This document shows positions 5,791 to 62,262 of a stretch of DNA of 64,000 bases, piece by piece. Within the stretch, counting starts at the first letter, position 1, and every line of letters starts with the position of its first letter. The stretch covers positions 3,571,108 to 3,635,107 of the forward strand of contig OY969568.1 of NCBI GenBank assembly GCA_963701125.1, given 5' to 3'. Both the position numbers and the translations under genes were made by a program. The notes below the pieces were generated by a model. The model saw nothing but the letters and a program-made list of their open reading frames with translations. It was not told the DNA's origin and made no database searches. The stretch comes from an uncultured Actinomycetes bacterium (GTDB lineage: Bacteria > Actinomycetota > Thermoleophilia > Gaiellales > JAICJC01).

Positions 5791-5864
5791 CCGAGAGATG
5801 GTAGAGAGCCGGTCGGACCCGATCCGCGGAGCGGCCGGTGCGGTCAGCGAAACGCTCCCAAAGA

Positions 5865-5901
5865 AAAGTGTAGTCAGGTAGTGTTTACTTCGCTACACTT
5901 T
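5865..5901. promoter_or_regulatory. Perfect 9-bp inverted repeat (aaagtgtag N19 ctacacttt) in an AT-rich divergent promoter region
   Basis: Read directly. It lies between the HEPN gene (minus) and the ATPase gene (plus), in one of the few low-GC patches of the window. Confidence 0.5.
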
Positions 5902-5906
5902 GTCTA

Positions 5907-29758: not shown

Positions 29759-30844
29759 CTACGCCGGCCCGCGCTCCTGCAGGTAGCGGGTGTTGAAGCC
29801 GTCGAGCAGGGAGTCCTTCTCGGCCAGCACGCCGTGGGTGAAGGCGCGCGAGCGCACGCCGCGCTGCACCCGCTCGCACACGACGTAGTCCTGGTGGGCG
29901 ACGAGCTCGACGAACTCGACGATCTCGGACGGGTCGAAGCCGGGATCGGCGATCGCCTCGGGCCGGAACAGGTAGTCGGTGATGACGGTCGTGTGTCCGG
30001 GCTCGCGTGGCAGCAGCGTGGTCGCGATCGCGCCGGTGCCGGTCACGTCGATGAACATGTTCGGGAACACGGTGCAGCCGTAGAGCGAGGTCGAGTCGTG
30101 CTCGTCGAGCCCCGGCATCACCGGCAGGCTGGACTGGCCGGTGCGCGTGAAGCTCGTCCCGCCGCCCGCGATCGCGACGCCGCCGTCGCCGCGGTGGGCG
30201 TCGTACACCGATCCCTTGCGGAACGCCGGCACGACGGCGACCAGCTCGGGGTGCACCGTCGGGCAATGCAGGCACTCGTTGTAGTTCTCGATCAGGATCT
30301 TCCAGTTGGCCTGCACCTCGTTCACGGTCATATGGCCGCTGCGCAGGTCGGTCAGGTTGAAGCGGGCAAATGAGAGCGGCCCGTCGTGCTGGCCGCCAAG
30401 CCAGGTCTCGAGCGGCTGCGGGTCGGGATCGAGGTGCACGAAGAGGAACCCCTCCCAGACGTCCACCTCGACCGGCCACAGGCCGAGCGCATCGCGGTCG
30501 AGCTCGTCCTTGCCGACGTTGGGGGTGCCGATCAGGCGGCCGTCGAACGAGTATGACCAGGCGTGGTAGGGGCACTTGACGGCGCCCTTCATCCGCCCGG
30601 ACAGCTCGTCGCACAGCCGCGAGCCGCGGTGGCGGCACACGTTGTAGAAGCCGTGCAGCCGGCCGTCCTTGTCGCGCAGGACGATCACGCTCTCGCCCGC
30701 GACGTCGACCGTCATGAAGTCGCCCGCCTCGGCGAGCGCATCGGCGCGGCCGGCGTAGAACCAGTTGCGGGCGAAGATCCGCTCGCGCTCCACCTCGAAC
30801 ACCTCGGCCGCGTGATAGTCGCGGCCGGACAGCGTCTTCATCAT
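29759..30844 (-). CDS. Rieske [2Fe-2S] aromatic-ring-hydroxylating oxygenase alpha subunit-like protein
   Basis: CRHRGSRL...CPYHAWSY Rieske motif, and NYNECLHCPTVHPEL mononuclear-iron region. ATG at 30844. Confidence 0.85.
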   Translation of the reverse strand: MMKTLSGRDYHAAEVFEVERERIFARNWFYAGRADALAEAGDFMTVDVAGESVIVLRDKDGRLHGFYNVCRHRGSRLCDELSGRMKGAVKCPYHAWSYSFDGRLIGTPNVGKDELDRDALGLWPVEVDVWEGFLFVHLDPDPQPLETWLGGQHDGPLSFARFNLTDLRSGHMTVNEVQANWKILIENYNECLHCPTVHPELVAVVPAFRKGSVYDAHRGDGGVAIAGGGTSFTRTGQSSLPVMPGLDEHDSTSLYGCTVFPNMFIDVTGTGAIATTLLPREPGHTTVITDYLFRPEAIADPGFDPSEIVEFVELVAHQDYVVCERVQRGVRSRAFTHGVLAEKDSLLDGFNTRYLQERGPA

Positions 30845-33382: not shown

Positions 33383-33589
33383 ATGACCTTCCAGCCCCAC
33401 CCAGATCCGGTGATCGCCTACGAGACCCAGGCGCGCTATGCGCCCGGCGAGGCGTGGATCACGCTTGACGTCAGCGTCTCGCGCACCGTCGCCGTCGATG
33501 AGGCGTTCTTCCGCCAGGATCCCTGGGGCCGGATGCCCACCGAGGTGCGGGTGCGAAGCGTCCTGCACGGCCCGCACAACGATCTGTAG
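33383..33589 (+). CDS. Small hypothetical protein
   Basis: 68-aa ORF with balanced composition that fills the gap before trpS. No homology recognised. Confidence 0.3.
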   Translation: MTFQPHPDPVIAYETQARYAPGEAWITLDVSVSRTVAVDEAFFRQDPWGRMPTEVRVRSVLHGPHNDL

Positions 33590-33595
33590 CGCGGC

Positions 33596-34604
33596 TCAGT
33601 AGGCGGTGTGCATGAGGCTGTGGACGTGGCCGAGCGTCTCGTCGGCGACCGCCTGTGCCCGCTCGCTGCCGGCCCGCAGCACCGAGCGCAGGTGGCCGCG
33701 GTCGGCGAGCAGGGCGCGGCGCCTGGCGCGCACGGCCCGGAAGCGCTCGTTGACCGCATCGGTGACGAGGCGTTTGAGGGCGGCCGAGCCGCCTGTCGCC
33801 GACCGACGCCGCCACCGCCTCCGGCGGCTCGTCGAGGCAGAGCGCGGCCAGCAGCACCAGGTTTGCCACCTCGGGCCGGCGGTCGGGCTCGTAGGTGATG
33901 GCCCGCTCGGCATCGGTCCGGGCCGAGCGGATCAGGCGGGCCGTCTCGTCCTCGCTCGCGCCGATCGCGATCGCATTTCGGCGGCTCTTGCTCATCTTCC
34001 CGCCGTCGACGCCCAGAAGCAGCGGCGCCGACCCGAGCATCGCCTCGGGCTCGGGGAAGAAGGGGCCGTCCGACGGGGCGTAGCGCGCGTTGAACCGCCG
34101 TGCGATCAGCCGCGCGATCTCGACGTGCGGCAGCTGATCGCGGCCGACCGGCACGAGGTTCGCGCGGCAGAACAGGATGTCGGCCGCCTGATGGACGGGG
34201 TAGGTGAACATCAGCGCCGACATCGCCGCCGCGCCGCTCGCGCGCATCTCGTCCTTGACGGTCGGGTTGCGCCGTACCTCGGTGACGCTCACGAGGCTCA
34301 GGAACGGCACCAGCAGCTGGTTGAGCCCACTCACCTGGCTGTGCGCGAAGATCGTCGCCCGGCCGGGGTCGATCCCGACGGCGAGATAGTCGGCCACGAG
34401 CGCGTCGACGTCCTCGGCGAGCCCCGCCGGCGAGTCGCGATCGGTGATCGTCTGGTAGTCGGCGACGACCACGAAGAGCTCGACGCCCTCGTCCTGGAGC
34501 CGGACGCGGTTTTCGAGCGTCCCGAAGTAGTGGCCGAGGTGGAGCGGGCCCGTGGGCCGGTCGCCCGTGAGCACGCGGGGCGTTGTGGGATCGATATGGA
34601 ACAC
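33596..34604 (-). pseudogene. trpS: Tryptophan--tRNA ligase with an apparent single frameshift near 33790-33800
   Basis: HIGH motif (PLHLGHY) and KMSKS are present in ORF 33471..34604. The conserved C-terminus (GGSAALKRLVTDAVNERF...AQAVADETLGHVHSLM) is in ORF 33596..33913, another frame. Confidence 0.85.
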
Positions 34605-36014: not shown

Positions 36015-36665
36015 GTGACGCGGGCCGGTGTAGCATCGGGTGCGATGGGCGACGATCTGCGACCGGACATCGACGGGTGGGCGCGTGCGCACGGCTTCGA
36101 CCCGTCGGACGACCAGATCGGCGGGACGACTCCGCTCCTGCGCCTGGGCATGCTGGACACGACGGATGCCACCTACCGCGGGACGATCGACGGGCAGGAC
36201 GCCATCCTGGCGGAGTTCTCGGTCGGCTCGCCCGACTGGTCGGAGGCGTTCACCGCCTCGGGCATCCGCTCGAGCGGCTTCACGCTGATCCTGATCTTCG
36301 TCGACGCCTCGCGGTGGCCGCGCCTCACCGTCCATCCGAGCCGCTTCAACGACCATGACTGGGCCCGTCGGCTGCTCGGCGCCGACCACCGCGTGCACAC
36401 GCTCTCGGAGCGGATGGACGCGCGGTATCGCGTCGTGGCGTCGGCCGGCATCGGCGCCGACCGGCTCGGCCGGCTCTTCACCTCCGAGCTGGTCGAGTGG
36501 TGGCTCGCGCAGGAGCCCGAGGTGATCGTGGACATCGAGGATCACGGAGACGGGGCGGGCTTCCTCACGGTCGCCCAGCTCGGCATCGGCATCGGCGACG
36601 AGGCGCTCACGACCCTGCAGGCACAGGCGTCGCACCTGCTCGCCGCATTCTCCGCCGTCACGTAG
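36015..36665 (+). CDS. Hypothetical protein
   Basis: 216-aa ORF with normal composition. A possible ATG start lies at 36045. Confidence 0.45.
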   Translation: MTRAGVASGAMGDDLRPDIDGWARAHGFDPSDDQIGGTTPLLRLGMLDTTDATYRGTIDGQDAILAEFSVGSPDWSEAFTASGIRSSGFTLILIFVDASRWPRLTVHPSRFNDHDWARRLLGADHRVHTLSERMDARYRVVASAGIGADRLGRLFTSELVEWWLAQEPEVIVDIEDHGDGAGFLTVAQLGIGIGDEALTTLQAQASHLLAAFSAVT

Positions 36666-36679
36666 TCGTCACATAGCCG

Positions 36680-38158
36680 TCACGGCCGGCGTTCGGGGTC
36701 TGACCCCAGTGCGGCCTCGAGCGGCGAGAGGTCGGCCAGCGGCGGCTCGCCCTCGCGCCGCCGCGGCGCGTGGCTGCGGACGAGGTCATATGCGCGGCGC
36801 GTGCCCTCGCCGAGCTCGCCCGCGCGGTCGCGCAGGTCGACGGCCTGCGCCGCCAGGTAGAGCTCGACCGCGGCGACGTAGGTGCCGAGGCGGGTCATCT
36901 CCTCGACCCGGCGGGCGGCCACGGGAGTGGGGATGACGCGATCCTCGATGCCCTCGGCGGTGGTCGACGTCGACAGGTCGAGCGTCGCCGGCATCGCCAG
37001 CAGGCGCGCCTCGGCCGCGGCGGCGCTCGCGCCGTAGACCACGATGCCGAGGCCGTCCGCGCTGGCCGAGTCGTCGTCGCGCAGGCCGGTCGGCAGTCCG
37101 CTGAACCCGGAGTGGACGAGCTTGTTCGCCCGCTCGCACGAGGCCGTGATCACGTGCGCGAGCGCGATCCGCACGTAGTCGAGGGTGATCCCGTAGGGGA
37201 CGGAATCGAAGTTCCCGTTCGAGAGCGCGCGGCCGTCCGGCGTGATGCTCGGGTTGTCGTGCGACGAGACGAGCTCGGCCTCGACGATCTCGCGGGCGTG
37301 GCGCAGAGCGTTGCGGGCAGCTGCGTGCGTCTGGGGAACGACCCTCATCGTCAGCGGATCCTGCAGGTGCCGGTGCAGTGTCCCGCCGAGCAGGCTGCCG
37401 CCGCGCAGGAGCGCCTGCAGCCGCTCGATCTCGTCGGCGATCCCGGGCACCGGGCGCGCGTCGGCGACGGCCGGGTCGAACGCCTGCACGTTGCCCAGCA
37501 TGCCCTCGAACGTGAGCGCGGCCGCCGCGTCGAAGCGGTCGAGCAGCGTGCCGGCACCGATCAGGCCGAGCGCCGACCAGCCGAGCGAGAACCCGTTCGC
37601 GTTCACGAAGGCGAGCGCCTCCTTGGCCGTCGGCTCCCACGGCGTGAGGCCGAGCCGCTCGAGCTCGCCGGACCATGTGCCCTCGCCGGTCAGGGCGGCC
37701 GCGAGGTCGGCCAGCGGACCGAGGTCTGACTGACCCAGCGAGCCCGTCGTGCGCACGTGCGGGACGAGCCCGGCGTTCAGCGCCGCGATCAGGTGATCGG
37801 CCAGCAGCGGCCGCACGCCGGAGCGCCCGCGCGCGAAGCCGGCCACCTGGGCGAGCATGACGGCGCGCACGACCCGCTCGGGCACGTCGGGGCCCGTCCC
37901 GGTGCGGTGCGAGAGCAGCATGAGCCGGTTGAACGCGAGCTGCTCGTCGCGCTTGACGGCCACGCGCTTGAGCGCGCCGACGCCGGTCGTCAGGCCGTAC
38001 ACGCGCTCGCCGCGGGCAAGGAGCGCGTCGGTCACCTCGCGGGCGCGCTCGATGCGCGCACGGGCGGCGTCGGCCAGCTCCACGCGCCGGCCGCGCACGG
38101 CGACGTCGGCCACGTCCTCGAGCGTGAGGCTCGCGTCGAGCAGGAGCGCGCCGGTCAC
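36680..38158 (-). CDS. HAL/PAL-fold (aromatic amino acid lyase family) protein lacking the Ala-Ser-Gly MIO triad
   Basis: Family-wide similarity (YGLTTGVGAL..., GSLGQSDLGPLADL, QDPLTMRVVPQ, SHDNP, NGNFDS). Canonical G-A-S-G-D-L is replaced by G-Q-S-D-L. The GTG start overlaps the upstream TGA. Confidence 0.75.
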   Translation of the reverse strand: MTGALLLDASLTLEDVADVAVRGRRVELADAARARIERAREVTDALLARGERVYGLTTGVGALKRVAVKRDEQLAFNRLMLLSHRTGTGPDVPERVVRAVMLAQVAGFARGRSGVRPLLADHLIAALNAGLVPHVRTTGSLGQSDLGPLADLAAALTGEGTWSGELERLGLTPWEPTAKEALAFVNANGFSLGWSALGLIGAGTLLDRFDAAAALTFEGMLGNVQAFDPAVADARPVPGIADEIERLQALLRGGSLLGGTLHRHLQDPLTMRVVPQTHAAARNALRHAREIVEAELVSSHDNPSITPDGRALSNGNFDSVPYGITLDYVRIALAHVITASCERANKLVHSGFSGLPTGLRDDDSASADGLGIVVYGASAAAAEARLLAMPATLDLSTSTTAEGIEDRVIPTPVAARRVEEMTRLGTYVAAVELYLAAQAVDLRDRAGELGEGTRRAYDLVRSHAPRRREGEPPLADLSPLEAALGSDPERRP

Positions 38159-39257
38159 GATGTCCGGAAGAACGGCTCGCCGAGCGCCTCGACCCGCACG
38201 GTCACGCCGAGGCCCGGCGCGGCCGGCGCGGCGCGGCGGCCGCCCTGCGGCTCGGGCAGGCCGTCGGCGTTTTGCGATCGTGACCCAGTCGGTGAAGTCG
38301 ACGGTGTGGGCGCGGTTGGGCTCGGGGGTCGAGTGCGACAGGTGCAGCATGGCGGCGGTGTCGATCGTAGCCCCGCCGGTGTCCTCGACCGTCACGGTCA
38401 TGCCGAGCTCGACCGCCGCGTCGCGCATGGCCGCCGCCCGCGTGACCCCGCCGACACGCGCGAGCTTGATCGTGACGCCGTCGGCTCCCGCCTCGCGCCG
38501 GGCGCGCACGAGCTCCGGGAGCGACACGATCGACTCGTCGAGCACGAGCGGATGGCTGCAGTGGGCGCGCAGCGCCGCGCACTCCTCGAGGGTCGCGCAC
38601 GGCTGCTCGAGCGTGTGGTCGATGTTCTCGGTCGCGCGCATGAACCGCCGCGCGGCCGACGTCGTCCAGCCGCCGTTTGCGTCGGCGAAGAGGACGATGT
38701 CCGGGCCGACGGCGTCACGCACGGCGCCGAGCCGGGCCGCGTCTGCGGCCGGGTCGCCGCCGACCTTGATCTGCAGCCGCCGGTAGCCGGCGCCGACGTG
38801 GCTGCGTGCGCGCTCCACGACATCGTCGAGCGTCGCCGGGCGAGATCGAGCGGTAGAGGTCGACCGCCGCCCCGAAACGGCCGCCGAGGGCCTCGCACAG
38901 CGGCTGGCCGTGCAGGCGCGCGGTCGCGTCCCAGCAGGCCATGTCGAGCGCCGACTTGACGTACGGCTGGCCGCGCATGGCGGCGTCCATGAGCTGCACG
39001 ATCCGGCGCGGCTGGCGGGGGTCTGCGCCCACGACGTGCGGGGCGAGCAGGACGATGCCGGCGCGGGCGCCCTCGGCGAACGCGTCGGCGTAGAAGGCGC
39101 CGAGCGGTGCCATCTCGCCCCAGCCGGTCACACCCTCGTCGGTGTCCACCGCGACGACGAGCGAGTCGAAGCCGTCGGTCGCGCCGCCCGACGTCGAGTA
39201 GGGGCCGGCCGCGAACGGCTGCAGCTGGCGGTATGCGCGGACGCCGCTGATGCGCAT
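38155..39257 (-). pseudogene. Enolase-superfamily (MR/MLE) enzyme interrupted by two +1 frameshifts
   Basis: The N-domain (VTGWGEM...KSALDMACWD) is in ORF 38715..39536, and the barrel (QIKVGG, DANGGW, LEQP, LDES, IKLARVGG) in ORF 36680..38818. The C-terminus (NADGLPEP...APGLGVTVRVEAL) is in a third frame. Breaks lie near 38845 and 38270. Confidence 0.8.
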
Positions 39258-39267
39258 CGAGGCGCGA

Positions 39268-40704
39268 CTAGTCCCCGAGCTCCGCGCGGCGGCGCACGAC
39301 GTAGGCATCGAGCTGCGCCCGCACGTCGGGATCGAGCGGCGGCTGCTCGTAGGACTCGATCGTCGCGCGCCAGATCTCGCCCGCCCGCTCGGCCGCGTCG
39401 CGCGAGCCCTTCGACTTCCACCGCTCGAAGTTCTCGGTCGAGGACAGGAGCGGCCGGTAGAAGCAGGTGCGGAACCGCTCCAGCGTGTGCGCGGCGCCCA
39501 GGAAGTGCCCGCCGTGGCCGACCTCCTCATGCGCACCGTAGGCCAGGCTCGCCTCGTCCACCTCGAGCGGCGTGAACTCCTCCTGCAGCATCCGCAGCAT
39601 CTCGATGTCGATGATGAACTTCTCGTAGGAGGCCACGAGCCCGGACTCGAGCCAGCCGGCCGCGTGCTCGACGTAGTTGGCGCCCGCCAGGAACGCGGGC
39701 AGCATCGTGTTCAGCCCCTCGTAGGCCGCCTGCGCGTCAGGCGTCTGGCTCGACGTGAGGAAGCCGCCGCCGGCCCGCCACGGCACGCCGAAGCGGCGCG
39801 CCACCTGGCCCGAGCAGAGCAGGCCCATCGCCGACTCGGGGCCGCCGAACCCGGGCGATCCCGACTGCATGTCGGTGTGGGACAGGAACGAGCCGAGCAC
39901 GACGGGCGCGCCCGGGCGCACGAGCTGCGCGAGCGCCAGGCCGGCCAGCGCCTCGGCCGTCTGCTGCACAAGCGCCGCCGGCACCGATGCCGGCGACATC
40001 GCGCCCATGAGCAGGAACGGCGTGATGATCACCGCCTGCCCGGCCTCGGCGTAGATCGTCATCGCCTCGAGCATGCGGGTGTCGTAGCGAAGCGGCGAGT
40101 TGGCGTTGACGACGCCGAACATGCGCACCTCGCCGTCGGCGGGGCCGCCGTGCAGGATGTCGGTCATCGCGACCGAGTCCGCCGCGGCGTCCTGCGAGAT
40201 GACCGCGCCCATGTACGGCTTGTCCGTGAGCGTCTGCACGGCGAGCAGCATGTCGAGGTGACGCGAGTCGAGCGGGCGGTCGCCCGGCTCGCAGCAGAGG
40301 CCGCCCGGCGTGTCCAGCTGGTCGAACGACTGGCTCAGCCGGCAGAACTGCTCGAAGTCGTGCATCGTCGCCTCGCGGCGGTCCGCGCCCTCACGCACGA
40401 ACGGCGGCCCCTGGGTGGGGGCGAAGAACATGTGCCGGCCGCCCACGTGCACGCTCCGATCCGGGTTGCGCGCGACCAGCGGGAACTCCCGCGGCGTCGT
40501 CGCGACCTGCTCGAGCACCCAGTCGGGGTCGAAGCGCACGACCGAGTCCTCGACCCGCTGCCCCGCGGCGCGGAAGCGATCGAGCGACTCGTCGTGCAGG
40601 AACTCGATCCCGATGTCGGACAGGAGCCGCCGCCAGCCGCGCTCGAGCACGGCCATCGCATCCTCCGAGAGGATGTCGTAGCGGGGCATGTCGTTTCGGA
40701 ACAT
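39268..40704 (-). CDS. MttB-superfamily methyltransferase, non-pyrrolysine type (quaternary-amine/betaine methyltransferase-like)
   Basis: 478 aa with an uninterrupted frame and no internal TAG. Similar to trimethylamine methyltransferase family proteins along its whole length (from memory). Its start overlaps the kinase stop. Confidence 0.75.
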   Translation of the reverse strand: MFRNDMPRYDILSEDAMAVLERGWRRLLSDIGIEFLHDESLDRFRAAGQRVEDSVVRFDPDWVLEQVATTPREFPLVARNPDRSVHVGGRHMFFAPTQGPPFVREGADRREATMHDFEQFCRLSQSFDQLDTPGGLCCEPGDRPLDSRHLDMLLAVQTLTDKPYMGAVISQDAAADSVAMTDILHGGPADGEVRMFGVVNANSPLRYDTRMLEAMTIYAEAGQAVIITPFLLMGAMSPASVPAALVQQTAEALAGLALAQLVRPGAPVVLGSFLSHTDMQSGSPGFGGPESAMGLLCSGQVARRFGVPWRAGGGFLTSSQTPDAQAAYEGLNTMLPAFLAGANYVEHAAGWLESGLVASYEKFIIDIEMLRMLQEEFTPLEVDEASLAYGAHEEVGHGGHFLGAAHTLERFRTCFYRPLLSSTENFERWKSKGSRDAAERAGEIWRATIESYEQPPLDPDVRAQLDAYVVRRRAELGD

Positions 40705-42095
40705 CAGCGCACCGGCCCGCGGCCGGCGGCGGGGAGGGAGATGCCGAAGGTGGTGGATCCCGGCTGCGATCGCACCGTGATCGCACCTCGGTGGCCGATG
40801 ACGATCCGCCGCGCGATGTCGAGGCCGAGGCCGCTGCCGTCGCCGACCGACTTCGTCGTGAAGAAGGGCTCGAAGATGCGCGACTGGACCTCGGCGGGAA
40901 TGCCGGGGCCGTCGTCTGCGATCTCGACCAGGATGTCGTCGCCGAGCGCCCGGGTCGTGATCGTGATCGTGCCCCTGGGCCGGCCGGCGAGGGCGTCGAG
41001 GGCGTTCGTGAGCAGGTTCGTCCACACCTGGTTCAGCTCGGAGCCGTGCACGGTCACGGGCGGAAGGGTGCGGTCATAGCTGCGCTCGATCTTCACGGGC
41101 TCGTGCTTGATGCGGAACTTCAGCATGGTCAGCGTGCTGTCCAGGCCGTCGTGCACATCGACGTCCTCGACCGCGGCCCGGTCCATGTGCGTGTAGTCCT
41201 TGATCGCGGCCACGAGCTCGGAGATCCGCGCGGTCGACTCGTGCAGCTCGCCGACGAGCGTGTGGGCGGTGAGCGACGCCGCCACCCACTCGAGGGCCGG
41301 GCCGGTCGCCGGCCCCGCGGCCGTCGCCACCTGCTCGAGCCACTCCTCGTTCAGGCAGGCCCGGGCCAGCGGCTCGGCCAGCCGCCAGCCCTCCTGGCCC
41401 ATGTCGTCGAGCAGGACGGCCAGCCGGTCTTCGCGGTCGGCCGAGGCGACCGAGCCGTCGCCCTCGCCGGCGCGCGCGAGCGCGGACTGCTGCAGCGCGA
41501 CCAGCCGGGCGGCGTCCTCGCGCTCGACGCCGCTCGACACGAAATGGTGCACCGTGTCCTGCAGCGTCGCGAGCGCCTCACCGAGCTCGGTGGCCGTCCG
41601 CCGTGCCGCCGCCGCCGGGTTGTTCAGCTCGTGGGCGAGGCCGGCCGAGAGCGTGCCGAGCGCCGCGAGCTTCTCCTGCTGGCGCACGAGCGCGTCGGCC
41701 GCCTGGGCGATCGGCGCGATCAGGCGCACGGCGGTGCGCATCGCGCTCGGCGTTTCGCGCAGGAACGATCGGAACGTGGCGGCGTCCCAGGTCAGGAGCC
41801 GCACGTCGGTCGTCGCGTGGCCGCTCGCGAGCAGGGGGTCGCCGGTGAGCAGGTTGGCGGCGCCCGCGTAGGTGGGCGCCTCGCGCTCGCTCAGGAACAC
41901 GTCGACGCCGTTGATGCAGCGCGTCCACTCGACGCGGCCTTCGACGACGACCGAGAAGCGCTCGAGCTTCGTGCCTTCGGTGAAGAGCGCCTCGCCGATC
42001 CCGAGGTGCGCCTCCTGTCCTTGCGCGGCGAACGCGGTCAGCGCGTCGGGATCGACGCCCTCGAAGAGGTCGAGCTGCTCGAGCACCTCGATCAC
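40704..42095 (-). CDS. Sensor histidine kinase with an N-terminal CAP/cNMP-binding-like domain
   Basis: CAP beta-barrel-like N-terminus, H-box LAHELNNP, N box WTNLLTNALDA, G boxes DDGPGI and GSGLGL. No TM segment. Confidence 0.8.
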   Translation of the reverse strand: MIEVLEQLDLFEGVDPDALTAFAAQGQEAHLGIGEALFTEGTKLERFSVVVEGRVEWTRCINGVDVFLSEREAPTYAGAANLLTGDPLLASGHATTDVRLLTWDAATFRSFLRETPSAMRTAVRLIAPIAQAADALVRQQEKLAALGTLSAGLAHELNNPAAAARRTATELGEALATLQDTVHHFVSSGVEREDAARLVALQQSALARAGEGDGSVASADREDRLAVLLDDMGQEGWRLAEPLARACLNEEWLEQVATAAGPATGPALEWVAASLTAHTLVGELHESTARISELVAAIKDYTHMDRAAVEDVDVHDGLDSTLTMLKFRIKHEPVKIERSYDRTLPPVTVHGSELNQVWTNLLTNALDALAGRPRGTITITTRALGDDILVEIADDGPGIPAEVQSRIFEPFFTTKSVGDGSGLGLDIARRIVIGHRGAITVRSQPGSTTFGISLPAAGRGPVR

Positions 42096-43777
42096 ACGGC
42101 CGCCGCCAGGTACTCGTGCACGAAGTGCACCGCCATCGAGCCCTCGCCGACGGCCGAGGCGACCCGCTTCATCGACTCGCTGCGCACGTCGCCGGCCACG
42201 AACACGCCCGCCATGCTCGTCTCGAGCAGGTAGGGGTCGCGGTCGAGGCGCCAGCGCGGCCGCACCTCCTCGCGCAGCACCTCGGCGCCCGCGAGCACGA
42301 AGCCGCGCCCGTCGCGGGCGACGCCGTCGGGCAGCCAGTCGGTCTGCGGGCGGGCGCCGATGAAGACGAACATGGCCGCGAGTTCGACCTCGTCCTCGGC
42401 GCCGGTGACCGTGTCGCGCACCGTGACCCGCTCGAGCGAGTCGCTGCCGTGGGCCGCGGTGACCTCGCCGTTCAGGCGCACGTCGATGTTGGGCGTGGCC
42501 TCGATGGTGTCGATCAGGTAGCGCGACATGCTCTTCGCAAGGCTCGTGCCGCGGTAGAGCAGCGTCACCCGCTGGGCGTAGCCGGCGAAGTAGATCGCCG
42601 CCTGGCCGGCCGAGTTGGCGCCGCCCACGACGACGACGTGCTCGTCGCGGCACGACACGCCCTCGCTGCGCGAGCCGCCGTAGTAGACGCCGCGGCCCGA
42701 GAGCGCCTCGATGCCGGGGGCGTCGAGCCGGCGGTAGTCCACGCCGGTGGCGATGATGATGGCCTTGGCGCCCAGCTGGTCGTGCCCGGCCAGGTGCACG
42801 AGCCGCGCCGGGCCGCGCTCGTCGATCGCCGTCACCTCCTGCACGGTCAGGAGCTCGGCGCCGAAGCGGGTCGCCTGCGCCGTCGCACGGCGGGCGAGGT
42901 CGGCGCCGGAGAGCCCCACCGGGAAGCCGAGGTAGTTCTCGATCCGCGAGCTCTGACCGGCCTGGCCGCCGGGCGCCTCGCGCTCGATCAGCGCGGTGCG
43001 CAGGCCCTCGGACGCGCCGTACACCGCCGCGGCGAGGCCGGCCGGGCCGCCGCCCACGATCACGAGGTCGTAGAACTCGAGCTCGGCGCGGCGGCGGACA
43101 CCGGCCCGCTCGGCCAGCTCCGCCACCGTCGGCCCGTGCAGCACGCCGCCGTCGGGGAAGAGCACGAGCGGCAGCGCCGCCGACCCGTCGGCCGCCGCCA
43201 GCAGGCGTTGCCCCTCGTCGTCGCGCTCGACGTCGAGCCAGCGGTAGGGCACCTGGTTTCGGGCCAGGAAGTCGCGGGCGTCATGTGACTCGCGCGACCA
43301 CCGGTGGCCGACCACCTGGATGCGGTCGGCGTCGGCGGGCGCGTCGGCCTTCCAGGCGTCGAGCAGGTCGTCGAGCACCGGGTAGAGCTGCTCGTCGGGC
43401 GGATCCCACGGCTTCAGCAGATAGTGGTCGAGCGAGACGCGGTTGATCGCGTCGATGGCCGCCTGGGTGTCGGCATACGCGGTGAGGAGCACGCGTTTGG
43501 CCTCGGGGGCGACGCGCATCGCCTCCTCGAGGAACTCGACGCCCGACATCTCCGGCATGCGCTGGTCGGCGAGCAGGAGCGCGACCGCGGCACCGCGCAG
43601 CTTTGACTCGCGGACGGCTGCGAGCGCCGCCTCGCCGCTCTCGGCGCGCAGGATGCGATAGTCGCGCCCGTAGCGCCGGCGCAGGTCGCGCTCGACCGCC
43701 CGCGCGACCGACGGCTCGTCGTCGACGGCGAGCAGCACGGGGCGTGCGCCCTCGCGCGTCTCGGGAACGCTGCTCAC
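42092..43777 (-). CDS. Fused response-regulator receiver / thioredoxin-fold linker / thioredoxin-reductase-like flavoprotein
   Basis: Receiver (LLAVDDEP, LLLADQRMPEMSG, LLTAY, KPW), two Rossmann motifs (VIVGGGPAGL, VVVGGANSAG) and GVFVAGDV. The whole protein has a single Cys and no CxxC. Confidence 0.85.
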   Translation of the reverse strand: MSSVPETREGARPVLLAVDDEPSVARAVERDLRRRYGRDYRILRAESGEAALAAVRESKLRGAAVALLLADQRMPEMSGVEFLEEAMRVAPEAKRVLLTAYADTQAAIDAINRVSLDHYLLKPWDPPDEQLYPVLDDLLDAWKADAPADADRIQVVGHRWSRESHDARDFLARNQVPYRWLDVERDDEGQRLLAAADGSAALPLVLFPDGGVLHGPTVAELAERAGVRRRAELEFYDLVIVGGGPAGLAAAVYGASEGLRTALIEREAPGGQAGQSSRIENYLGFPVGLSGADLARRATAQATRFGAELLTVQEVTAIDERGPARLVHLAGHDQLGAKAIIIATGVDYRRLDAPGIEALSGRGVYYGGSRSEGVSCRDEHVVVVGGANSAGQAAIYFAGYAQRVTLLYRGTSLAKSMSRYLIDTIEATPNIDVRLNGEVTAAHGSDSLERVTVRDTVTGAEDEVELAAMFVFIGARPQTDWLPDGVARDGRGFVLAGAEVLREEVRPRWRLDRDPYLLETSMAGVFVAGDVRSESMKRVASAVGEGSMAVHFVHEYLAAAV

Positions 43778-44055
43778 GCCCCTCCCGCGACGGTGAAGAC
43801 CACCTCGTCGGTGTAGCACCAGAACCAGTCCTCGCCTGGCTCGGCCGACCGGATCACGACGTGGCCGCTCGAGTTGACGTGCGCGGTCGCGTGCCGGTTG
43901 GGCGAGGAGTCGCAGCAGCCGATGTGGCCGCAGGTCGTGCACATCCGCAGGTGCAGCCAGCGCGAGCCCATCGCCAGGCACTCCTCGCACCCGGCGATCG
44001 TCTCCGGAAGCTCGGTCACCTCGATCTGATCCATATGGGTGCAGGTTTCCGCCAC
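43774..44055 (-). CDS. UBP-type zinc-finger protein
   Basis: CTHMD...CEECL...WLHLRMCTTCGHIGCCDSSPNRHATAH...GH pattern. Its TGA stop overlaps the GTG start of the downstream RR/TrxR-like gene (GTGA). Confidence 0.8.
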   Translation of the reverse strand: MAETCTHMDQIEVTELPETIAGCEECLAMGSRWLHLRMCTTCGHIGCCDSSPNRHATAHVNSSGHVVIRSAEPGEDWFWCYTDEVVFTVAGGA

Positions 44056-44141
44056 GTGGGCCCCCCTTGTCGGCGCGGTCGAATTCTTCGACCGATGCCT
44101 ACCACAACCGCGGCGGGGATGCGCGGCGGATCCCGGCGTTT

Positions 44142-44178
44142 GGGGACTGTCCCCGGTTTGCGGGGACAGTCCCCGGTT
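44142..44178. repeat. Doublet of the 13-bp palindrome: GGGGACTGTCCCCggtt tgc GGGGACAGTCCCCggtt
   Basis: Read directly. It lies between the MCP 3' end and the zf-UBP operon start. Confidence 0.9.
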
Positions 44179-44188
44179 CTCGGGATGC

Positions 44189-45919
44189 CTAGAGGCGGAA
44201 GTGCGAGACGAGCCGCTCGAGCGTCTGTGCGGTGGCCGCGAGCTCCTGCGACGAGGCGTTGATCTGCTGTGCGGCGGCGCTCGTCTCCTCGGCCGACGAC
44301 GAGACCTCCTGCGTGGCGGCAGAGGACTCCTCGGCGACGACCGCGACCTGCGACGAGGACGCCGCGATCTGCTCGATCCGGTGAGTCATGTCCTCGACGG
44401 CGGCGCCGATCTGGCCGAAGGCCGTGCGCGCCTCGGCCACGATGGCCGCGCTCTCGTCGCTGCGCTGGGCGCTCTCGGTGGCGGCGGCGACCGTGCGCTG
44501 CGTCTCGACCTGGATCTCGCCGATCAGGCCGGCGATCTGCTCGGCGGCGCGGCGCGACTCCTCGGCCAGCTTGCGCACCTCCTCGGCGACGACGGCGAAG
44601 CCGCGGCCCTGCTCGCCGGCGCGGGCGGCCTCGATGGCCGCGTTGAGCGCCAGCAGGTTCGTCTGGCCGGCGATGCCCGAGATCGTCTCGACGATCCCGC
44701 CGATCCGCTCCGAGCGGTTCGCCAGCTCGCCGATGGCATCGGCCATGTCGGCCGACGACTGGCGGACGGCCGCCATCGCACCGGTGGCCTGCTCGGCGGC
44801 GCCGACGCCGCGGGCGGCCACCTCGCTCGCCTGCCCGGCGGCCGTGGCGGACTCGGACGCGAGATCGCGGGTCGTCTGCACCATCGCCAGCTGGCGGTCG
44901 GCGCCGCCGGCGACGTTCTGGACAGCGCGCGCGATGTCGTCGACGGCCCGGCTCGTCTCGCTCGACGTGGCGGTCAGCTCCTGCGATGCCCCGCTCAGGT
45001 GCGTCGCCGCGCCCGACACCTCGGTGATCACGTTTCGGAGCGCCTCGACCATCCGGGCGACCGCGTGCGAGAGGACGTCGTGCTCGGACTTCGGCGTGAC
45101 CTCGACCGCCAGGTCGCCGCCGGCGACCCGTGTCACCGAGTCGGCGAGCTCCTGCAGGTAGGCCATCATCCGGCCGAACGCGCGGGTGGCGTCGCCGAGC
45201 TCGTCGGTGTTCTCGGTGTTCACGTCGTGGTCGAGCTCGCCCAGCGCGATGCCCTCGGCCGCTGCCAGCAGCCGCTGGGCGCGCCGGCCGATGCGGCGGG
45301 TGAGCAGCGTCGCGAGCGCCGTCGCCGTCACGAGGGCCGTCAGGCTGAACAGCGCGATTGCCCACTCCGCGTGGCTCGAGGTGCTCCCGGCCTGCGCCGT
45401 CAGCGTCGTCTCACGCGTCCGAAGCGTCGACTGATAGGCGGTGAGCGCCTCGACGATGCCGTCGCTGGCCTGGTCGGCGGAGCCGTTGAGAATCGCCTTG
45501 GCCTGCGCATGGCGGCCGGCGGTGAGCAGTCCGAACATCCGCGTGCCGACGGCGTTGGAATGGGCGACGGCGGCGTCGATGCGTGCGACCGCGGCGTGGT
45601 CGCTGCCGGTGCCCGCCAGCGCGTCCAGCCGGTGGAGCGCCCGCATGAAGGTCGTGTGATCGGCCGCGTAGTCGGCCTGCGCGCTCGCGGTCGAGGCGAG
45701 CACCGCGCGCGTCTGCGAGAAGTGCATGTCGGCGGCCGCAGAGCGGACGTCGTCCGCAGCGATCAGGCGCGGGGTCACCGAGCGGTCGACGCTGTTCGAG
45801 ACCGAAGTCAGCTCCGAGAGGCCCCACCATGCGACGCCGGAGAGCCCGAGCAGCAGGAGCACGACGACACCGAAGCTCAGGCCGAGCTTCGACCTGATCG
45901 TCCCTGCGATGGCTGGCAT
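44189..45919 (-). CDS. Methyl-accepting chemotaxis protein (4HB-type sensor, HAMP, MA domain)
   Basis: The highly conserved signalling hairpin [40 protein letters not shown], with two TM segments. ATG at 45919 follows ggag. Confidence 0.9.
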
Positions 45920-46001: not shown

Positions 46002-46973
46002 TTAGGCGACGAGGCGCGCAGCCGCCCGCGTGCGGGCGTCATCCGGCGCGAACGAGGCGTCGAGCGCCGCGCGGTTGCAGCGGGCCAGGTCGGCATCCGA
46101 CCAGGCGAACGTGGCCCGCAGCCGCGCGTACTCGCGCTCGAGGTCGATGTCGGTGGTCGCGCGGCAGTCGGTGTTCACACCGAGCGACACGCCCCGCCGG
46201 TAGAGCGCGTCGATCGGGTGATCGGCGTAGGTGTCGCACAGGTCGGTCTGGACGTTGGACGACGGGCACAGCTCGAGGTGGATGCCCGTCTCGACCAGGT
46301 GGTCGACCAGCGCCGGATCCTCGATGCTGCGCGCGCCGTGGCCGATGCGCTCGGGCCGCAGCCGGCGCAGCGTCTCCCACACGCTCGCGGGCCCCGACCC
46401 CTCGCCGGCGTGGGCGGTGCGGCGCAGGCCGTGCTCCTCGGCGAGGCGGAACGCGGCCTCGTGCGCGTCGAGCGGATAGCCGGCCTCGTCACCGGCGATG
46501 TCGAGCGCGACCACGAGCGATCCCCGGAACCGGTCGACGAGCTCCACGGTCTCGAGACTCTGGGCGGCGGCGAAGTGGCGCAGCGTGCACAGGATCAGGC
46601 GGGCATCGACGCCGCTTGCGGCGATCGCCCGACCGACCGCAGCATCGACGATCTCGACGACCTCGGTCGCGGTCAGGTCGCCCTCGGTGTGCAGGTGGGG
46701 CGCGAACCGGGCCTCGGCATAGACGACGTTGTCGCGCGCGAGCTGGTCGAACAGGTCGTCGACCATCACCTCGAGGCCGCGCCTGTCCTGCATCAGCGCC
46801 ACGATGCGCGGCGGCCGCAGCAGGAAGTCGGCCAGGTTGGTGCACTTGGCGGGGGCGACGAAGTCGGTTCGGTACTGCTCGAGCGTCACCTCGGGCCGCA
46901 GCCGGGCGACGGCGGCATGGCTCGCGGCACAGTCGAGGTGGAGGTGCAGCTCGACCTTGGGCAGCCCCGGCAT
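46002..46973 (-). CDS. add: Adenosine deaminase
   Basis: [10 protein letters not shown], ...HAGE..., and [12 protein letters not shown] (SxNTDD-like). Confidence 0.85.
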
Positions 46974-47787: not shown

Positions 47788-49242
<1,455 letters not shown>

Positions 49243-49264
49243 GAAGGCTCCAGAAGGGTCGGAA

Positions 49265-50206
49265 TCAGGGCTGTGAGACGAGCTCGACGGGCGTGTGCTC
49301 GAACGTGCTGATGCGGGTCAGGCCGTCGACGCGGGTGCGGATCTCGTCCGAGCGCAGCCGCGCGACGCGGTCGGTGCCGAACTCCTCCACGTTGAACGAC
49401 GCGAGCGCCGTTCCGTACGCCATCGCCTGTCGCAGCACGTCGTCGGTGACGCCGTGCTCCACATGCCGTGCAACATAGCCCAGGAAGCCGCCCGCGAACG
49501 TGTCACCGGCGCCCGTCGGGTCGACGACGCTCTCGAGCGGGAAGGCGGGCAGCGAGAAGTACGAGTCGGGCGTGAACATGGCGGCGCCGTACTCGCCCTG
49601 CTTGGAGACGATCACGCGCGGCCCCATCAGCAGCAGGTCGCGCGCGGCCGTGACGAGGTTCGGCTTGCCGGTGAGCTGGCGCAGCTCGGCGTCGTTCAGG
49701 AGCACGCAGTCGACCCGCCGGATCACGTCCATCAGCTCGTCCCGGGCGCTCGAGATCCAGTAGTTCATCGAGTCGAGGGCGACGAAGCGCGCCGAGGTGC
49801 AGCTCTCGCGCACCGCGAGCTGGAGCGACGGCTGGATGTTGGCCAGGAAGAGGACGTCGCAGGCGCGCGACGCCGGCGAGAGCTTCGGCTCGAACTCGGC
49901 GAAGACGCCGAGCTCGGTCGCGAGCGTGTGGCACTGGTTCAGGTCCCAGCCGTACTCGCCGTGCCAGAAGAACGTCCGCCCGCCGGACACCCGCTCGATG
50001 TCCGAGACGTCGGTGCCACGGGTGCGCAGGACGTCGATCTCGGCGTCGCCGAAGTCGTCGCCCACCGGTCCGACGACGCTGACCGTGTCGAAGAACGACG
50101 CCGCCAGGGCGAAGTAGGTCGCGGCGCCGCCGAGCATCCGCTCGCGCTCGCCGAAGGGGCTCTTGACCCGATCAAAGGCGATCGAGCCGACGACCGTTAC
50201 GCCCAT
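49265..50206 (-). CDS. PfkB-family kinase (adenosine/sugar kinase-like)
   Basis: [13 protein letters not shown] motif and PfkB fold pattern. ATG at 50206. Confidence 0.75.
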
Positions 50207-50222
50207 CGGGCGCCGCGCCTGG

Positions 50223-62245: not shown

Positions 62246-62262
62246 CACGGGCCAGGCCCGAT

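What the first reader, a model, noticed from the sequence alone, without database searches (positions are those of the whole stretch)
36680..44093. Six-gene coupled operon joining an atypical redox/two-component module to MttB, enolase-superfamily and MIO-less lyase genes: candidate undescribed betaine-catabolic sensing system
**Organisation.** Six minus-strand ORFs run head to tail:
- zf-UBP (43774-44055)
- receiver/TrxR-like fusion (42092-43777)
- CAP-domain histidine kinase (40704-42095)
- non-Pyl MttB-family methyltransferase (39268-40704)
- enolase-superfamily enzyme (38155-39257)
- HAL/PAL-fold protein (36680-38158)

The junctions are GTGA, GTGA, a 1-nt TGATG overlap, a 10-nt gap, and GTGA. 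This layout argues for one transcript.

**Known biology.**
- Non-Pyl MttB members demethylate quaternary amines such as glycine betaine, proline betaine and carnitine.
- Some enolase-superfamily members epimerise proline betaines.
- HAL/PAL-fold lyases without MIO (ergothionase type) eliminate trimethylamine from amino-acid betaines.

**Inference.** The three enzymes would fit one pathway for an amino-acid betaine: epimerise, eliminate or demethylate. No corrinoid protein or MT2 partner is present. The kinase and receiver pair has an enzymatic rather than DNA-binding output. I know of no described system with this composition. A 7-bp inverted repeat (ggtcgaa ttc ttcgacc, 44077-44093) lies 22 nt upstream of the first gene.
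Basis: partly seen in the sequence, partly recalled or inferred. Interest (0 to 1): 0.85.

Follow-up and report, generated by a model that had tools for sequence, protein, structure and literature searches.

The report
Two gene cassettes, not one system
The six genes are two separately inherited cassettes that happen to be neighbours in one group of soil Actinomycetota: a widespread signalling trio, and a so far undescribed enzyme pair (plus an accessory enzyme gene that is broken here) that probably breaks down a trimethylated amino acid.

Summary
The gene order and tight junctions are real for five of the six genes. The enolase-superfamily gene (38155-39257) is not an intact ORF: it carries two +1 frameshifts that none of the four relatives I aligned base by base has.

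Comparative data split the locus in two.
- **Signalling cassette:** zf-UBP protein, receiver fused to a thioredoxin-reductase-like flavoprotein without the CxxC, and a cNMP-binding histidine kinase. The receiver fusion has thousands of homologues. In 80 metagenome loci the kinase sits directly downstream in 45 of 54 loci with room. An MttB gene follows in only 1 of 40, and that one belongs to the window's own clade.
- **Catabolic cassette:** it occurs without the sensor genes in more distant Gaiellales. Its core is a betaine-type non-Pyl MttB translationally coupled to a MIO-less HAL-fold lyase. The enolase gene is an insert found in only part of the lineage.

The six-gene adjacency is conserved only where about 20 kb of flanking DNA is also collinear, so it is not evidence of functional coupling.

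Active-site signatures point to an alpha-N-trimethyl amino acid, possibly hercynine-like, as substrate. This is inferred, not shown. The 8-bp inverted repeat is at chance level.

Verdict: moderate interest, a new variant of known quaternary-amine catabolism.

The parts
44142..44174 (-). 14-bp perfect hairpin (GGGGACTGTCCCCG / CGGGGACAGTCCCC) just downstream of the MCP stop at 44189. It is terminator-like and marks the upstream boundary of the transcription unit.
   Evidence: 0.1 such hairpins expected per window. Related GC hairpins sit at the same place in L007 and L008. There is no T-tract, so the consensus terminator scan does not call it.
44076..44094 (.). It is probably fortuitous.
   Evidence: coordinates. 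(6 observed against 4.9 expected). (conserved only in L007; other relatives have unrelated sequence here).
43774..44055 (-). zf-UBP zinc-finger protein of 93 aa. Its GTG start is preceded by a GGGGGG Shine-Dalgarno sequence. It is a frequent third member of the signalling cassette.
   Evidence: PF02148, E 6.7e-12. The start and SD are conserved in relatives. It is adjacent to the RR/HK pair in 23 of 42 informative loci.
42092..43777 (-). Response regulator of 561 aa: receiver domain, an unassigned linker of about 95 aa, and a thioredoxin-reductase-like FAD/NAD(P)H flavoprotein that lacks the redox CxxC.
   Evidence: Pfam REC plus Pyr_redox_2. TIGR01292 scores 219 bits, below the cutoff of 343. 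The CAVC of TrxR aligns with GGSRS. The same loss is seen in all homologues read across that stretch, and all keep the DQRMP phospho-acceptor motif.
40704..42095 (-). Cytoplasmic histidine kinase of 463 aa with an N-terminal cyclic-nucleotide-binding domain. It is the cognate kinase of the receiver fusion.
   Evidence: PF00027 plus PF02518. The HELNNP H-box is visible in the translation. It lies directly downstream of the RR in 45 of 54 loci.
39268..40704 (-). Non-Pyl MttB-superfamily methyltransferase of 478 aa, betaine-type. Its ATG overlaps the kinase stop by 1 nt.
   Evidence: PF06253, E 2e-181. Best PDB hits are 4yyc at 1.8e-121 and MtgB at about 1e-107. Pyl aligns with Leu. MtgB R312 and H348 are kept, while Y97 is Gln and F356 is Gly; these four residues are the same in the window and all 12 cassette-linked orthologues.
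38155..39257 (-). Enolase-superfamily (MLE subgroup) gene related to cis-3-hydroxy-L-proline dehydratase and HpbD. In this window it is disrupted by two +1 frameshifts, near 38832 and in the A-run at 38270-38273.
   Evidence: The repaired product has MR_MLE_N and MR_MLE_C, scores 347 bits against NF043002 (cutoff 500), and hits 4mgg at 8.7e-84.
36680..38158 (-). MIO-less HAL-fold lyase of 492 aa. It is the last gene, and its stop is 14 nt from the end of a convergent ORF.
   Evidence: PF00221, E 3e-118. GQSDL replaces GASGDL and QDPL replaces QDAY, as in ergothionase 6s7j. Tyr54, His84 and Glu405 are kept.

Best explanation
The locus is a lineage-specific juxtaposition of two cassettes.

**Cassette A (43774-44055, 42092-43777, 40704-42095): a widespread signalling unit.** A cNMP-binding histidine kinase phosphorylates a receiver domain. 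The receiver is fused to a thioredoxin-reductase-like flavoprotein that has FAD and NAD(P)H motifs but no CxxC, so the output is flavoenzyme activity rather than transcription. A small zf-UBP protein often accompanies the pair. Its signal and target are unknown.

**Cassette B (36680-40704): a catabolic unit.** Its conserved core is a betaine-type non-Pyl MttB methyltransferase translationally coupled to a MIO-less HAL-fold lyase.
- Inferred mechanism: the substrate is an alpha-N-trimethyl amino acid, with histidine betaine (hercynine) the best guess.
- The lyase uses Tyr54 as base to remove the beta-proton and expels the methylated ammonium group without MIO, giving an alpha,beta-unsaturated acid.
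- The MttB moves a methyl group from a carboxylate-bearing quaternary amine to an unlinked corrinoid protein and on to tetrahydrofolate.
- The enolase-superfamily enzyme, inserted between the two in part of the lineage, interconverts C-alpha stereoisomers or dehydrates a related hydroxylated form.

In this window the enolase gene is broken, either by sequencing error or as a real pseudogene. In the window's clade cassette B has lost its own upstream intergenic region and abuts the kinase gene, so it is probably read through from the cassette A promoter.

**Shown:** gene content, residue signatures, linkage hierarchy.
**Inferred:** substrate, order of reactions, co-transcription.
For: **Independence of the two cassettes**
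- In 80 metagenome loci (54-92% identity) the kinase is directly downstream in 45 of 54, and MttB is present in 1 of 40.
- L022-L024 (81-84% identity) carry zf-UBP/RR/HK followed by Peptidase_M42/AhpC/DsbD or by a cupin.
- L009-L012 and L021 carry MttB-enolase-lyase without the sensor genes and with different flanks.
- L013, L105 and L106 carry MttB-lyase with a 1-4 nt overlap and no enolase gene.
- The six-gene order is kept only where about 20 kb is collinear.

**Lyase**
- GQ[SAG]DL and QDPL are invariant across the 11 aligned family members (47-97% identity to the window protein). Tyr54 and His84 are invariant and Glu405 nearly so.
- The motif pattern matches ergothionase 6s7j.
- MIO-less trimethylamine-lyases are an established kind (bioRxiv 10.1101/2025.08.13.670108).
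- One family member lies next to a bona fide HutU, 670 bits against a cutoff of 375.

**MttB**
- The Pyl position is Leu. Arg and His stand at the MtgB R312 and H348 positions, where Pyl-MttB has Tyr and Tyr.
- The residue roles come from PMC13080624.
- An unlinked corrinoid partner is normal in aerobes (PMC12478193).

**Enolase-superfamily gene**
- Metal ligands and both catalytic Lys are present in the alignment to 4mgg.
Against: - No biochemical or expression data exist for any of these proteins.
- The substrate guess rests on a handful of residues and on one HutU neighbour in a 48%-identical relative. Other relatives sit in unrelated contexts: CoA ligase/hydantoinase, GGDEF/EAL, or 3HCDH/CDO.
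- MtgB Y97 and F356, the cation-pi cage, are replaced by Gln and Gly, so even betaine binding is unproven.
- It is unclear why one pathway would need both a demethylase and an amine-eliminating lyase for the same betaine.
- No betaine transporter, Hut genes or corrinoid genes are consistently linked.
- In the window's clade the 1-nt kinase/MttB overlap does argue for co-transcription, so a regulatory link there cannot be excluded.
Confidence: 0.6

Rival explanations
1. All six genes form one integrated system in which the cNMP kinase and the receiver-flavoprotein sense or process a signal tied to betaine catabolism by the three enzymes.
For: - Junctions are overlapping or near-overlapping throughout, including TGATG between kinase and MttB.
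- No strong hairpin lies inside the unit.
- The order is kept in L002-L008, L014 and L025, and partly in L005, whose contig starts inside the kinase gene. That is about 9 species-level genomes or contigs.
Against: - Those genomes are collinear with the window far beyond the six genes, so the adjacency is inherited along with everything else.
- Outside that clade the halves never co-occur: 1 of 40 loci, and that one belongs to the same clade. L009-L013, L021, L105 and L106 lack the sensor genes.
- The response regulator has no DNA-binding domain with which to regulate the enzymes' genes.
Confidence: 0.12
2. Cassette B is not an amino-acid-betaine pathway. The MttB homologue demethylates a common osmolyte such as glycine betaine or proline betaine. 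The MIO-less HAL-fold protein has an unrelated or non-lyase role, and the enolase-type enzyme works on hydroxyproline-like compounds. Linkage would then reflect shared regulation only.
For: - The enolase gene's best family is cis-3-hydroxy-L-proline dehydratase (4mgg).
- HAL-fold relatives occur fused to, or flanked by, c-di-GMP signalling domains (P0101; L017) and in varied metabolic contexts.
- The MttB best matches the uncharacterised 4yyc.
Against: - MttB and the lyase are translationally coupled in every locus where both occur. They persist together when all flanks change.
- The MtgB glycine-betaine cage residues are not conserved.
- The lyase keeps the catalytic Tyr and the carboxylate and imidazole ligands of HAL.
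Confidence: 0.2
3. In this particular genome cassette B is decaying. The enolase gene is a true pseudogene and the pathway is partly or wholly non-functional.
For: - Two independent +1 insertions fall within 560 nt of one gene, while its five neighbours and about 55 other genes appear intact.
- One of the two insertions is not in a homopolymer.
- The enolase gene is dispensable in L013, L105 and L106.
Against: - The window contains another stretch (62235-64000) with many frame changes.
- Related long-read MAGs show scattered frameshifts in different genes (L002, L004, L008, L014), so assembly error is equally plausible.
- MttB and the lyase are intact and highly conserved.
Confidence: 0.35

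Closest known systems
MtgB glycine betaine:corrinoid methyltransferase (D. hafniense DSY3156; PDB 2qne/9yce) and the aerobic MtgBCD system of Ruegeria pomeroyi
   Same: - Full-length PF06253 TIM-barrel.
- No pyrrolysine; Leu stands at the Pyl position.
- The carboxylate-binding Arg and His (MtgB R312, H348) are conserved.
- As in the aerobic system, the corrinoid and pterin partners are not encoded next to it.
   Different: - The cation-pi residues Y97 and F356 are Gln and Gly in the window and all 12 cassette-linked orthologues.
- The gene is coupled to a HAL-fold lyase, which no described MttB-family system has.
- Substrate and partners are untested.
Ergothionase (Treponema denticola Td_ETL, PDB 6s7j) and histidine-betaine trimethylammonia-lyase (Shewanella woodyi Swoo_3913)
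   Same: - HAL/PAL fold.
- The Ala-Ser-Gly MIO triad is absent, with the same one-residue-shorter loop.
- HAL Tyr280 is replaced by Leu (QDPL).
- The catalytic Tyr and the HAL-type His and Glu are kept.
   Different: - Only distantly related (E 1.5e-51).
- Ergothionase Lys384, essential for thiolate binding, is Tyr here (His or Ile in relatives).
- The protein appears cytoplasmic (no signal peptide noted by eye; not run through a predictor) and is paired with MttB, not with urocanate reductase or thiourocanate hydratase.
- Activity is untested.
Enolase-superfamily MLE subgroup: cis-3-hydroxy-L-proline dehydratase (PDB 4mgg, which by my recollection is the Labrenzia aggregata enzyme; the tool output names it only 'muconate lactonizing enzyme') and 4-hydroxyproline betaine 2-epimerase HpbD (2pmq/4h2h, 4e8g)
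   Same: - Two-domain architecture.
- Asp/Glu/Asp metal ligands.
- Two catalytic Lys on strands 2 and 6.
- Best PDB and NCBIfam matches.
   Different: - Scores 347 bits against a 500-bit equivalog cutoff.
- The HpbD betaine-binding Trp312 and Asp293 could not be mapped.
- The gene is frameshifted in this window.
- The genomic context (MttB plus lyase) differs from the Rieske-demethylase context of HpbD.
REC-thioredoxin-reductase response regulators ('Mycobacterium-like' architecture noted by Galperin et al. 2018, PMC5847659)
   Same: A receiver domain fused to a TrxR-type flavoprotein, paired with a histidine kinase.
   Different: - Nothing is known of their function.
- Here and in all homologues examined the CxxC disulfide is missing.
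- The kinase carries a cNMP-binding domain.
- A zf-UBP protein is a frequent partner.

Membership tests
Non-Pyl MttB superfamily (quaternary amine:corrinoid methyltransferases) | Full-length PF06253 domain | tested here: met
   E 2.1e-181, profile positions 25-500 of 500.
Non-Pyl MttB superfamily (quaternary amine:corrinoid methyltransferases) | No in-frame amber/pyrrolysine codon; an ordinary residue at the Pyl position | tested here: met
   The ORF has one terminal stop only. Pyl (X) of 7xcl aligns with Leu. The Pyl-type model TIGR02369 scores 248 bits, below its cutoff of 525.
MtgB (glycine betaine-specific) | Substrate site Y97, F356 (cation-pi) and R312, H348 (carboxylate) (PMC13080624) | tested here: not met
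   R312 and H348 are kept, but Y97 is Gln and F356 is Gly in the window and all 12 cassette-linked orthologues.
Non-Pyl MttB superfamily (quaternary amine:corrinoid methyltransferases) | Cognate corrinoid protein, MT2 and reductive activase available | not testable with these tools
   None found among the window genes scanned, but in aerobes they are unlinked (PMC12478193). The whole genome would be needed.
MIO-less trimethylamine-lyases of the HAL/PAL fold (ergothionase type) | PF00221 fold without the Ala-Ser-Gly MIO precursor | tested here: met
   PF00221, E 3e-118. GSLGQSDL stands in place of GSVGASGDL, and this is invariant across the 11 aligned family members.
MIO-less trimethylamine-lyases of the HAL/PAL fold (ergothionase type) | Catalytic Tyr base retained; HAL Tyr280 replaced (QDPL as in 6s7j) | tested here: met
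   Tyr54 and QDPL are invariant. 6s7j reads QDPLSF.
Ergothionase sensu stricto | Lys384 for thiolate binding (essential in Td_ETL, as cited) | tested here: not met
   It aligns with Tyr in the window protein, and with His or Ile in relatives.
MIO-less trimethylamine-lyases of the HAL/PAL fold (ergothionase type) | Releases trimethylamine from an amino-acid betaine | not testable with these tools
   An enzyme assay is needed.
Enolase superfamily, MLE subgroup (c3LHyp dehydratase / HpbD-like) | MR_MLE_N plus MR_MLE_C domains with Asp/Glu/Asp metal ligands and two catalytic Lys | tested here: met
   After conceptual repair: Pfam and the alignment to 4mgg showing QIK, DAN, EQP, LDE and TIKLARVGG.
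Enolase superfamily, MLE subgroup (c3LHyp dehydratase / HpbD-like) | Equivalog-level match to cis-3-hydroxy-L-proline dehydratase | tested here: not met
   NF043002 scores 347 bits against a cutoff of 500.
Enolase superfamily, MLE subgroup (c3LHyp dehydratase / HpbD-like) | Intact coding sequence in this window | tested here: not met
   Two +1 frameshifts.
HpbD (betaine 2-epimerase) | Betaine-binding Trp312 and Asp293 (PMC3950512) | tested here: inconclusive
   The Asp is probably the VED motif. No Trp was found at the expected spacing. No residue-level alignment to 4e8g could be displayed.
Thioredoxin-disulfide reductase | Redox-active CxxC in the NADPH domain | tested here: not met
   CAVC aligns with GGSRS. 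It is absent in all homologues examined. TIGR01292 scores 219 bits, below its cutoff of 343.
Two-component system (HK plus REC) | Receiver with phospho-acceptor Asp, and an adjacent kinase with H-box and HATPase_c | tested here: met
   REC PF00072, with the DQRMP motif conserved. HATPase_c and the HELNNP H-box. Adjacent in 45 of 54 loci.

The most novel reading that the evidence does not exclude
The translationally coupled MttB/MIO-less-lyase pair (with or without the enolase-type epimerase) is a new aerobic route for alpha-N-trimethyl amino acids such as hercynine in uncultured soil Actinomycetota. It would combine corrinoid-dependent demethylation with MIO-independent amine elimination on one betaine. 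That would assign a function to a clade of the large, mostly uncharacterised pool of non-Pyl MttB homologues in aerobes. In one Gaiellales clade the pair has been captured behind a REC-flavoprotein/cNMP-kinase cassette and is expressed with it.
Probability: 0.25. Interest if true: 0.65.

Novelty: new variant of a known kind. Interest (0 to 1): 0.4.

Why it matters
**MttB homologues in aerobes.** These are very numerous and only glycine betaine use has a worked-out mechanism. A conserved pairing with a MIO-less lyase gives a concrete, testable substrate hypothesis for one clade. It would also extend trimethylamine-lyase chemistry beyond ergothionase and the single hercynine lyase reported so far.

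**The signalling cassette.** The REC-TrxR-like/cNMP-kinase/zf-UBP cassette is abundant in soil Actinomycetota and has no known function. Showing that it is self-contained redirects attention to it as its own problem.

**Method.** The case shows that tight operon junctions, and conservation among close relatives, are not enough to infer a functional system.

Tried and rejected
- **Exact-sequence lookup** of the window MttB found nothing, so the source genome is not in the collection.
- **Rfam scan** of the whole window gave no riboswitch or other RNA family.
- **Consensus promoter/terminator scan** of 36400-44400 gave no hits. This is uninformative for high-GC Actinomycetota.
- **The inverted repeat as an operator** was rejected: it is at chance frequency and not conserved.
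- **Hut-gene support at L019.** I looked for it next to a HAL-like singleton. The amidohydrolase there is not HutI or HutF, and 'HutD' matches Ves only weakly.
- **The window's Rieske oxygenase (29759-30844)** as a betaine monooxygenase gave only a partial, sub-threshold GbcA match.
- **Other apparent frame changes.** The sigma/anti-sigma region at 2767-4428 and the TrpRS region at 33580-34602 turned out to be gene boundaries or scoring artefacts, not clear frameshifts.
- **Literature searches** for MttB together with aromatic amino acid lyase, hercynine or ergothioneine found no paper with both.
- **Not done:** structure prediction and Foldseek. The residue-level alignments already answered the membership questions.
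- **Not spent:** the third large protein search and the representative-library search.


Full report
**Observation**

The window is about 73% G+C. Its closest relatives are Gaiellales and 'uncultured Actinomycetes' MAGs.

Five of the six reported minus-strand ORFs are intact at exactly the stated coordinates. Their junctions are GTGA, GTGA, TGATG, a 10-nt gap and GTGA. Pfam confirms the domain assignments:
- zf-UBP
- receiver plus Pyr_redox_2
- cNMP_binding plus HATPase_c
- MTTB (E 2e-181)
- MR_MLE_N and MR_MLE_C
- Lyase_aromatic (E 3e-118)

The enolase-superfamily gene is not an ORF. The interval 38155-39257 is 1103 nt and reads successively in three frames. Against L001, L003, L006 and L025 the window has one uncompensated extra base near 38832 and one in the A-run at 38270-38273. 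All 13 related loci that carry the gene align to it in one piece, except the error-ridden L014.

I cannot tell whether this is a pseudogene or an assembly error.
- For a pseudogene: the other genes near it are intact.
- For error: a second stretch (62235-64000) is riddled with frame changes, and related long-read MAGs have scattered frameshifts.

**The upstream boundary**

A 14-bp perfect hairpin (44142-44174) follows the stop of the upstream methyl-accepting chemotaxis gene. About 0.1 such hairpins are expected per window. The zf-UBP start at 44055, with its GGGGGG ribosome-binding site, is conserved in relatives.

The window has 6 such repeats against 4.9 expected, and this one is kept only in L007. 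I treat it as fortuitous.

**Two cassettes, not one system**

A scan of one genome per species with the lyase gave 14 close loci.
- L002-L008 and L014 (lyase 84-88% identical) have the full order MCP, zf-UBP, RR, HK, MttB, enolase, lyase.
- L009-L012 (72-77%) have only MttB-enolase-lyase.
- L013 (71%) has MttB-lyase.

The control that matters is. In L002-L008 and L014 the flanks are also collinear with the window. The upstream flank holds the S-adenosylhomocysteine hydrolase, HAD and adenosine deaminase genes. The downstream flank holds a molybdopterin oxidoreductase, TrpRS and PAS kinase genes. The six-gene adjacency there is therefore inherited synteny. In L009-L013 nothing but the enzyme genes is shared.

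Further loci fit the same picture.
- L021 (77%) has the trio beside a DmdA-like GcvT-family gene and an OYE-type flavoprotein.
- L105 and L106 (70%) have MttB-lyase with 1-4 nt overlaps and no enolase gene.
- Lyase homologues at 47-69% identity stand without MttB.

The linkage hierarchy is thus:
1. MttB plus lyase (the core)
2. plus the enolase gene (part of the lineage)
3. plus the sensor cassette (one collinear clade)

**The sensor cassette**

In 80 metagenome loci (54-92% identity, full length):
- the cNMP kinase lies directly downstream in 45 of 54 loci with room;
- a zf-UBP gene is adjacent in 23 of 42 informative loci (upstream of the RR in the Gaiellales type, after the kinase elsewhere);
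- MttB is present in 1 of 40, and that locus (L025) belongs to the window's clade.

In L022-L024 (81-84% identity) the same overlapping trio is followed by Peptidase_M42/AhpC/DsbD or by a cupin gene.

The flavoprotein domain has the FAD and NAD(P)H glycine motifs. At the CxxC of thioredoxin reductase it reads GGSRS. All homologues read across that stretch lack the motif, and all keep the DQRMP phospho-acceptor segment. It scores below the TrxR equivalog cutoff.

[quoted passage not shown] The response regulator has no DNA-binding domain, so it cannot by itself control transcription of the enzyme genes.

**The enzymes: MttB**

- The MttB has no internal stop.
- In the alignment to Pyl-MttB (7xcl), pyrrolysine falls on Leu.
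- The positions of MtgB R312 and H348 are Tyr and Tyr in Pyl-MttB, but Arg and His here. Those two residues bind the glycine betaine carboxylate in MtgB, while Y97 and F356 form the cation-pi cage (PMC13080624).
- In the window and in all 12 cassette-linked orthologues, Y97 is Gln and F356 is Gly.

The protein is therefore betaine-type rather than TMA-type, but it is not an MtgB equivalog. The lack of corrinoid and MT2 genes is not anomalous. In aerobic Ruegeria, MtgB uses unlinked MtgC and MtgD, which it shares with a split methionine synthase (PMC12478193). None is encoded among the window genes I scanned.

**The enzymes: the lyase**

- Best PDB matches are a HAL (7tqr, 1.5e-58) and then ergothionase (6s7j, 1.5e-51).
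- Across the 11 aligned family members (47-97% identity to the window protein) the MIO loop reads G-Q-[S/A/G]-D-L, one residue shorter than GASGDL, as in ergothionase.
- HAL Tyr280 is Leu (QDPL; ergothionase has QDPLSF).
- The catalytic Tyr54, His84 and the IEDR Glu are kept.
- Ergothionase Lys384 is Tyr here.

This pattern is HAL substrate ligands, no MIO and no Lys384. The same pattern led others to predict, and then show, hercynine trimethylamine-lyase activity for Swoo_3913 (bioRxiv 10.1101/2025.08.13.670108).

One 48%-identical relative lies beside a bona fide urocanate hydratase, 670 bits against a cutoff of 375. Other relatives sit in unrelated contexts, so the substrate inference is tentative.

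**The enzymes: the enolase-superfamily gene**

The repaired enolase-type protein is closest to PDB 4mgg (8.7e-84), which I recall as the cis-3-hydroxy-L-proline dehydratase structure; the tool output names it only as a muconate lactonizing enzyme. It matches NF043002, the cis-3-hydroxy-L-proline dehydratase model, at 347 bits, below the cutoff of 500. HpbD follows at about 4e-54. The metal ligands and both catalytic Lys are present.

**Mechanism proposed**

Cassette B most likely degrades an alpha-N-trimethyl amino acid.
- The lyase removes the beta-proton with Tyr54 and expels the methylated ammonium group without MIO.
- The MttB transfers a methyl group from a carboxylate-bearing quaternary amine to a corrinoid protein encoded elsewhere.
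- The enolase-type enzyme, where present, interconverts C-alpha stereoisomers or handles a hydroxylated congener.

Which enzyme acts first, and whether both act on the same compound, is unknown.

In the window's clade the trio has no intergenic region of its own. L009, L010 and L012 have 56-140 nt there, whereas here the MttB start overlaps the kinase stop. Read-through from the cassette A promoter is therefore likely in this clade. That is an expression link, not evidence that cassette A senses betaines.

**Comparison and novelty**

Each component belongs to a known kind: the non-Pyl MttB superfamily, ergothionase-type MIO-less lyases, MLE-subgroup enolase enzymes, and REC-TrxR response regulators.

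The conserved MttB/MIO-less-lyase pairing is the part I could not find described. I rate it a new variant of known quaternary-amine catabolism.

The six-gene 'sensing system' is not supported.

Interest is moderate (0.4). The locus offers a specific, cheap biochemical test for one clade of aerobic MttB homologues. It rests entirely on sequence inference from uncultured organisms, and in this window one of the three enzyme genes is broken.

Noticed in passing
window 62235-64000 (-): Fragments of a formate-dehydrogenase / NuoF-NuoG-like iron-sulfur molybdoenzyme are spread over at least five reading-frame pieces, next to an intact FdhD gene (61406-62245). I recognised the CPYCGVGC, 4Fe-4S and NuoF-like motifs by eye. 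It is either a heavily decayed gene or a low-quality stretch of the assembly.
   Followed up: partly
window 47788-53197 (-): An activated-methyl-cycle cluster lies on the same strand upstream. It holds S-adenosylhomocysteine hydrolase, a PfkB kinase, SAM synthetase, and a 580-aa fusion of a homocysteine S-methyltransferase domain with a class I SAM methyltransferase domain. Adenosine deaminase is at 46002-46973.
   Followed up: partly
L107 1782-5539; L108 2689-8256: In the 47-48% tier of the MIO-less lyase family the gene sits in a GntR / 3-hydroxyacyl-CoA-dehydrogenase-like / lyase / cysteine-dioxygenase-like operon. In L108 this lies beside a bona fide urocanate hydratase. It may be a separate histidine-betaine or ergothioneine-related pathway.
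   Followed up: partly
P0101; L017 8085-12831: One family member (P0101, 674 aa) is an EAL domain fused to the MIO-less lyase. In L017 the lyase is flanked by PAS-GGDEF-EAL and PAS-GGDEF proteins. This hints that some members are tied to c-di-GMP signalling.
   Followed up: no
window 9459, 47733, 53560 and 44143: Perfect GC-rich hairpins with stems of 12 bp or more occur in the window. The one at 44143 lies just past the end of the MCP gene; by the gene map the others also fall close to gene ends. They are probably T-tract-less terminators typical of high-GC Actinomycetota.
   Followed up: no
L002 2199-4097: In L002 about 1.9 kb is inserted between the MCP gene and zf-UBP, where other relatives have 61-323 nt. 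I did not examine its content.
   Followed up: no
window 29759-30844 (-): A Rieske / ring-hydroxylating oxygenase alpha subunit whose best, sub-threshold NCBIfam match is glycine betaine monooxygenase GbcA (192 bits against a cutoff of 670). It lies 6 kb from the cassette.
   Followed up: partly
window 12353-22534 (-): A nine-gene polysaccharide biosynthesis operon: GT4 and GT2 glycosyltransferases, a Wzx-like flippase, a Wzy_C ligase/polymerase and a Bac_transf priming transferase.
   Followed up: no
window 4990-7325: A protein with an Abi_C (abortive infection C-terminal) domain lies divergent from an ATPase_2/DUF234 protein. This may be a small defence-type pair.
   Followed up: no
L021 3611-6884 (-): Divergent from the MttB-enolase-lyase trio are a DmdA-like GcvT-family tetrahydrofolate-dependent demethylase (305 bits against a cutoff of 410) and a fragmented OYE-type FMN oxidoreductase. 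This is a methyl-group catabolism context seen only in this locus.
   Followed up: partly
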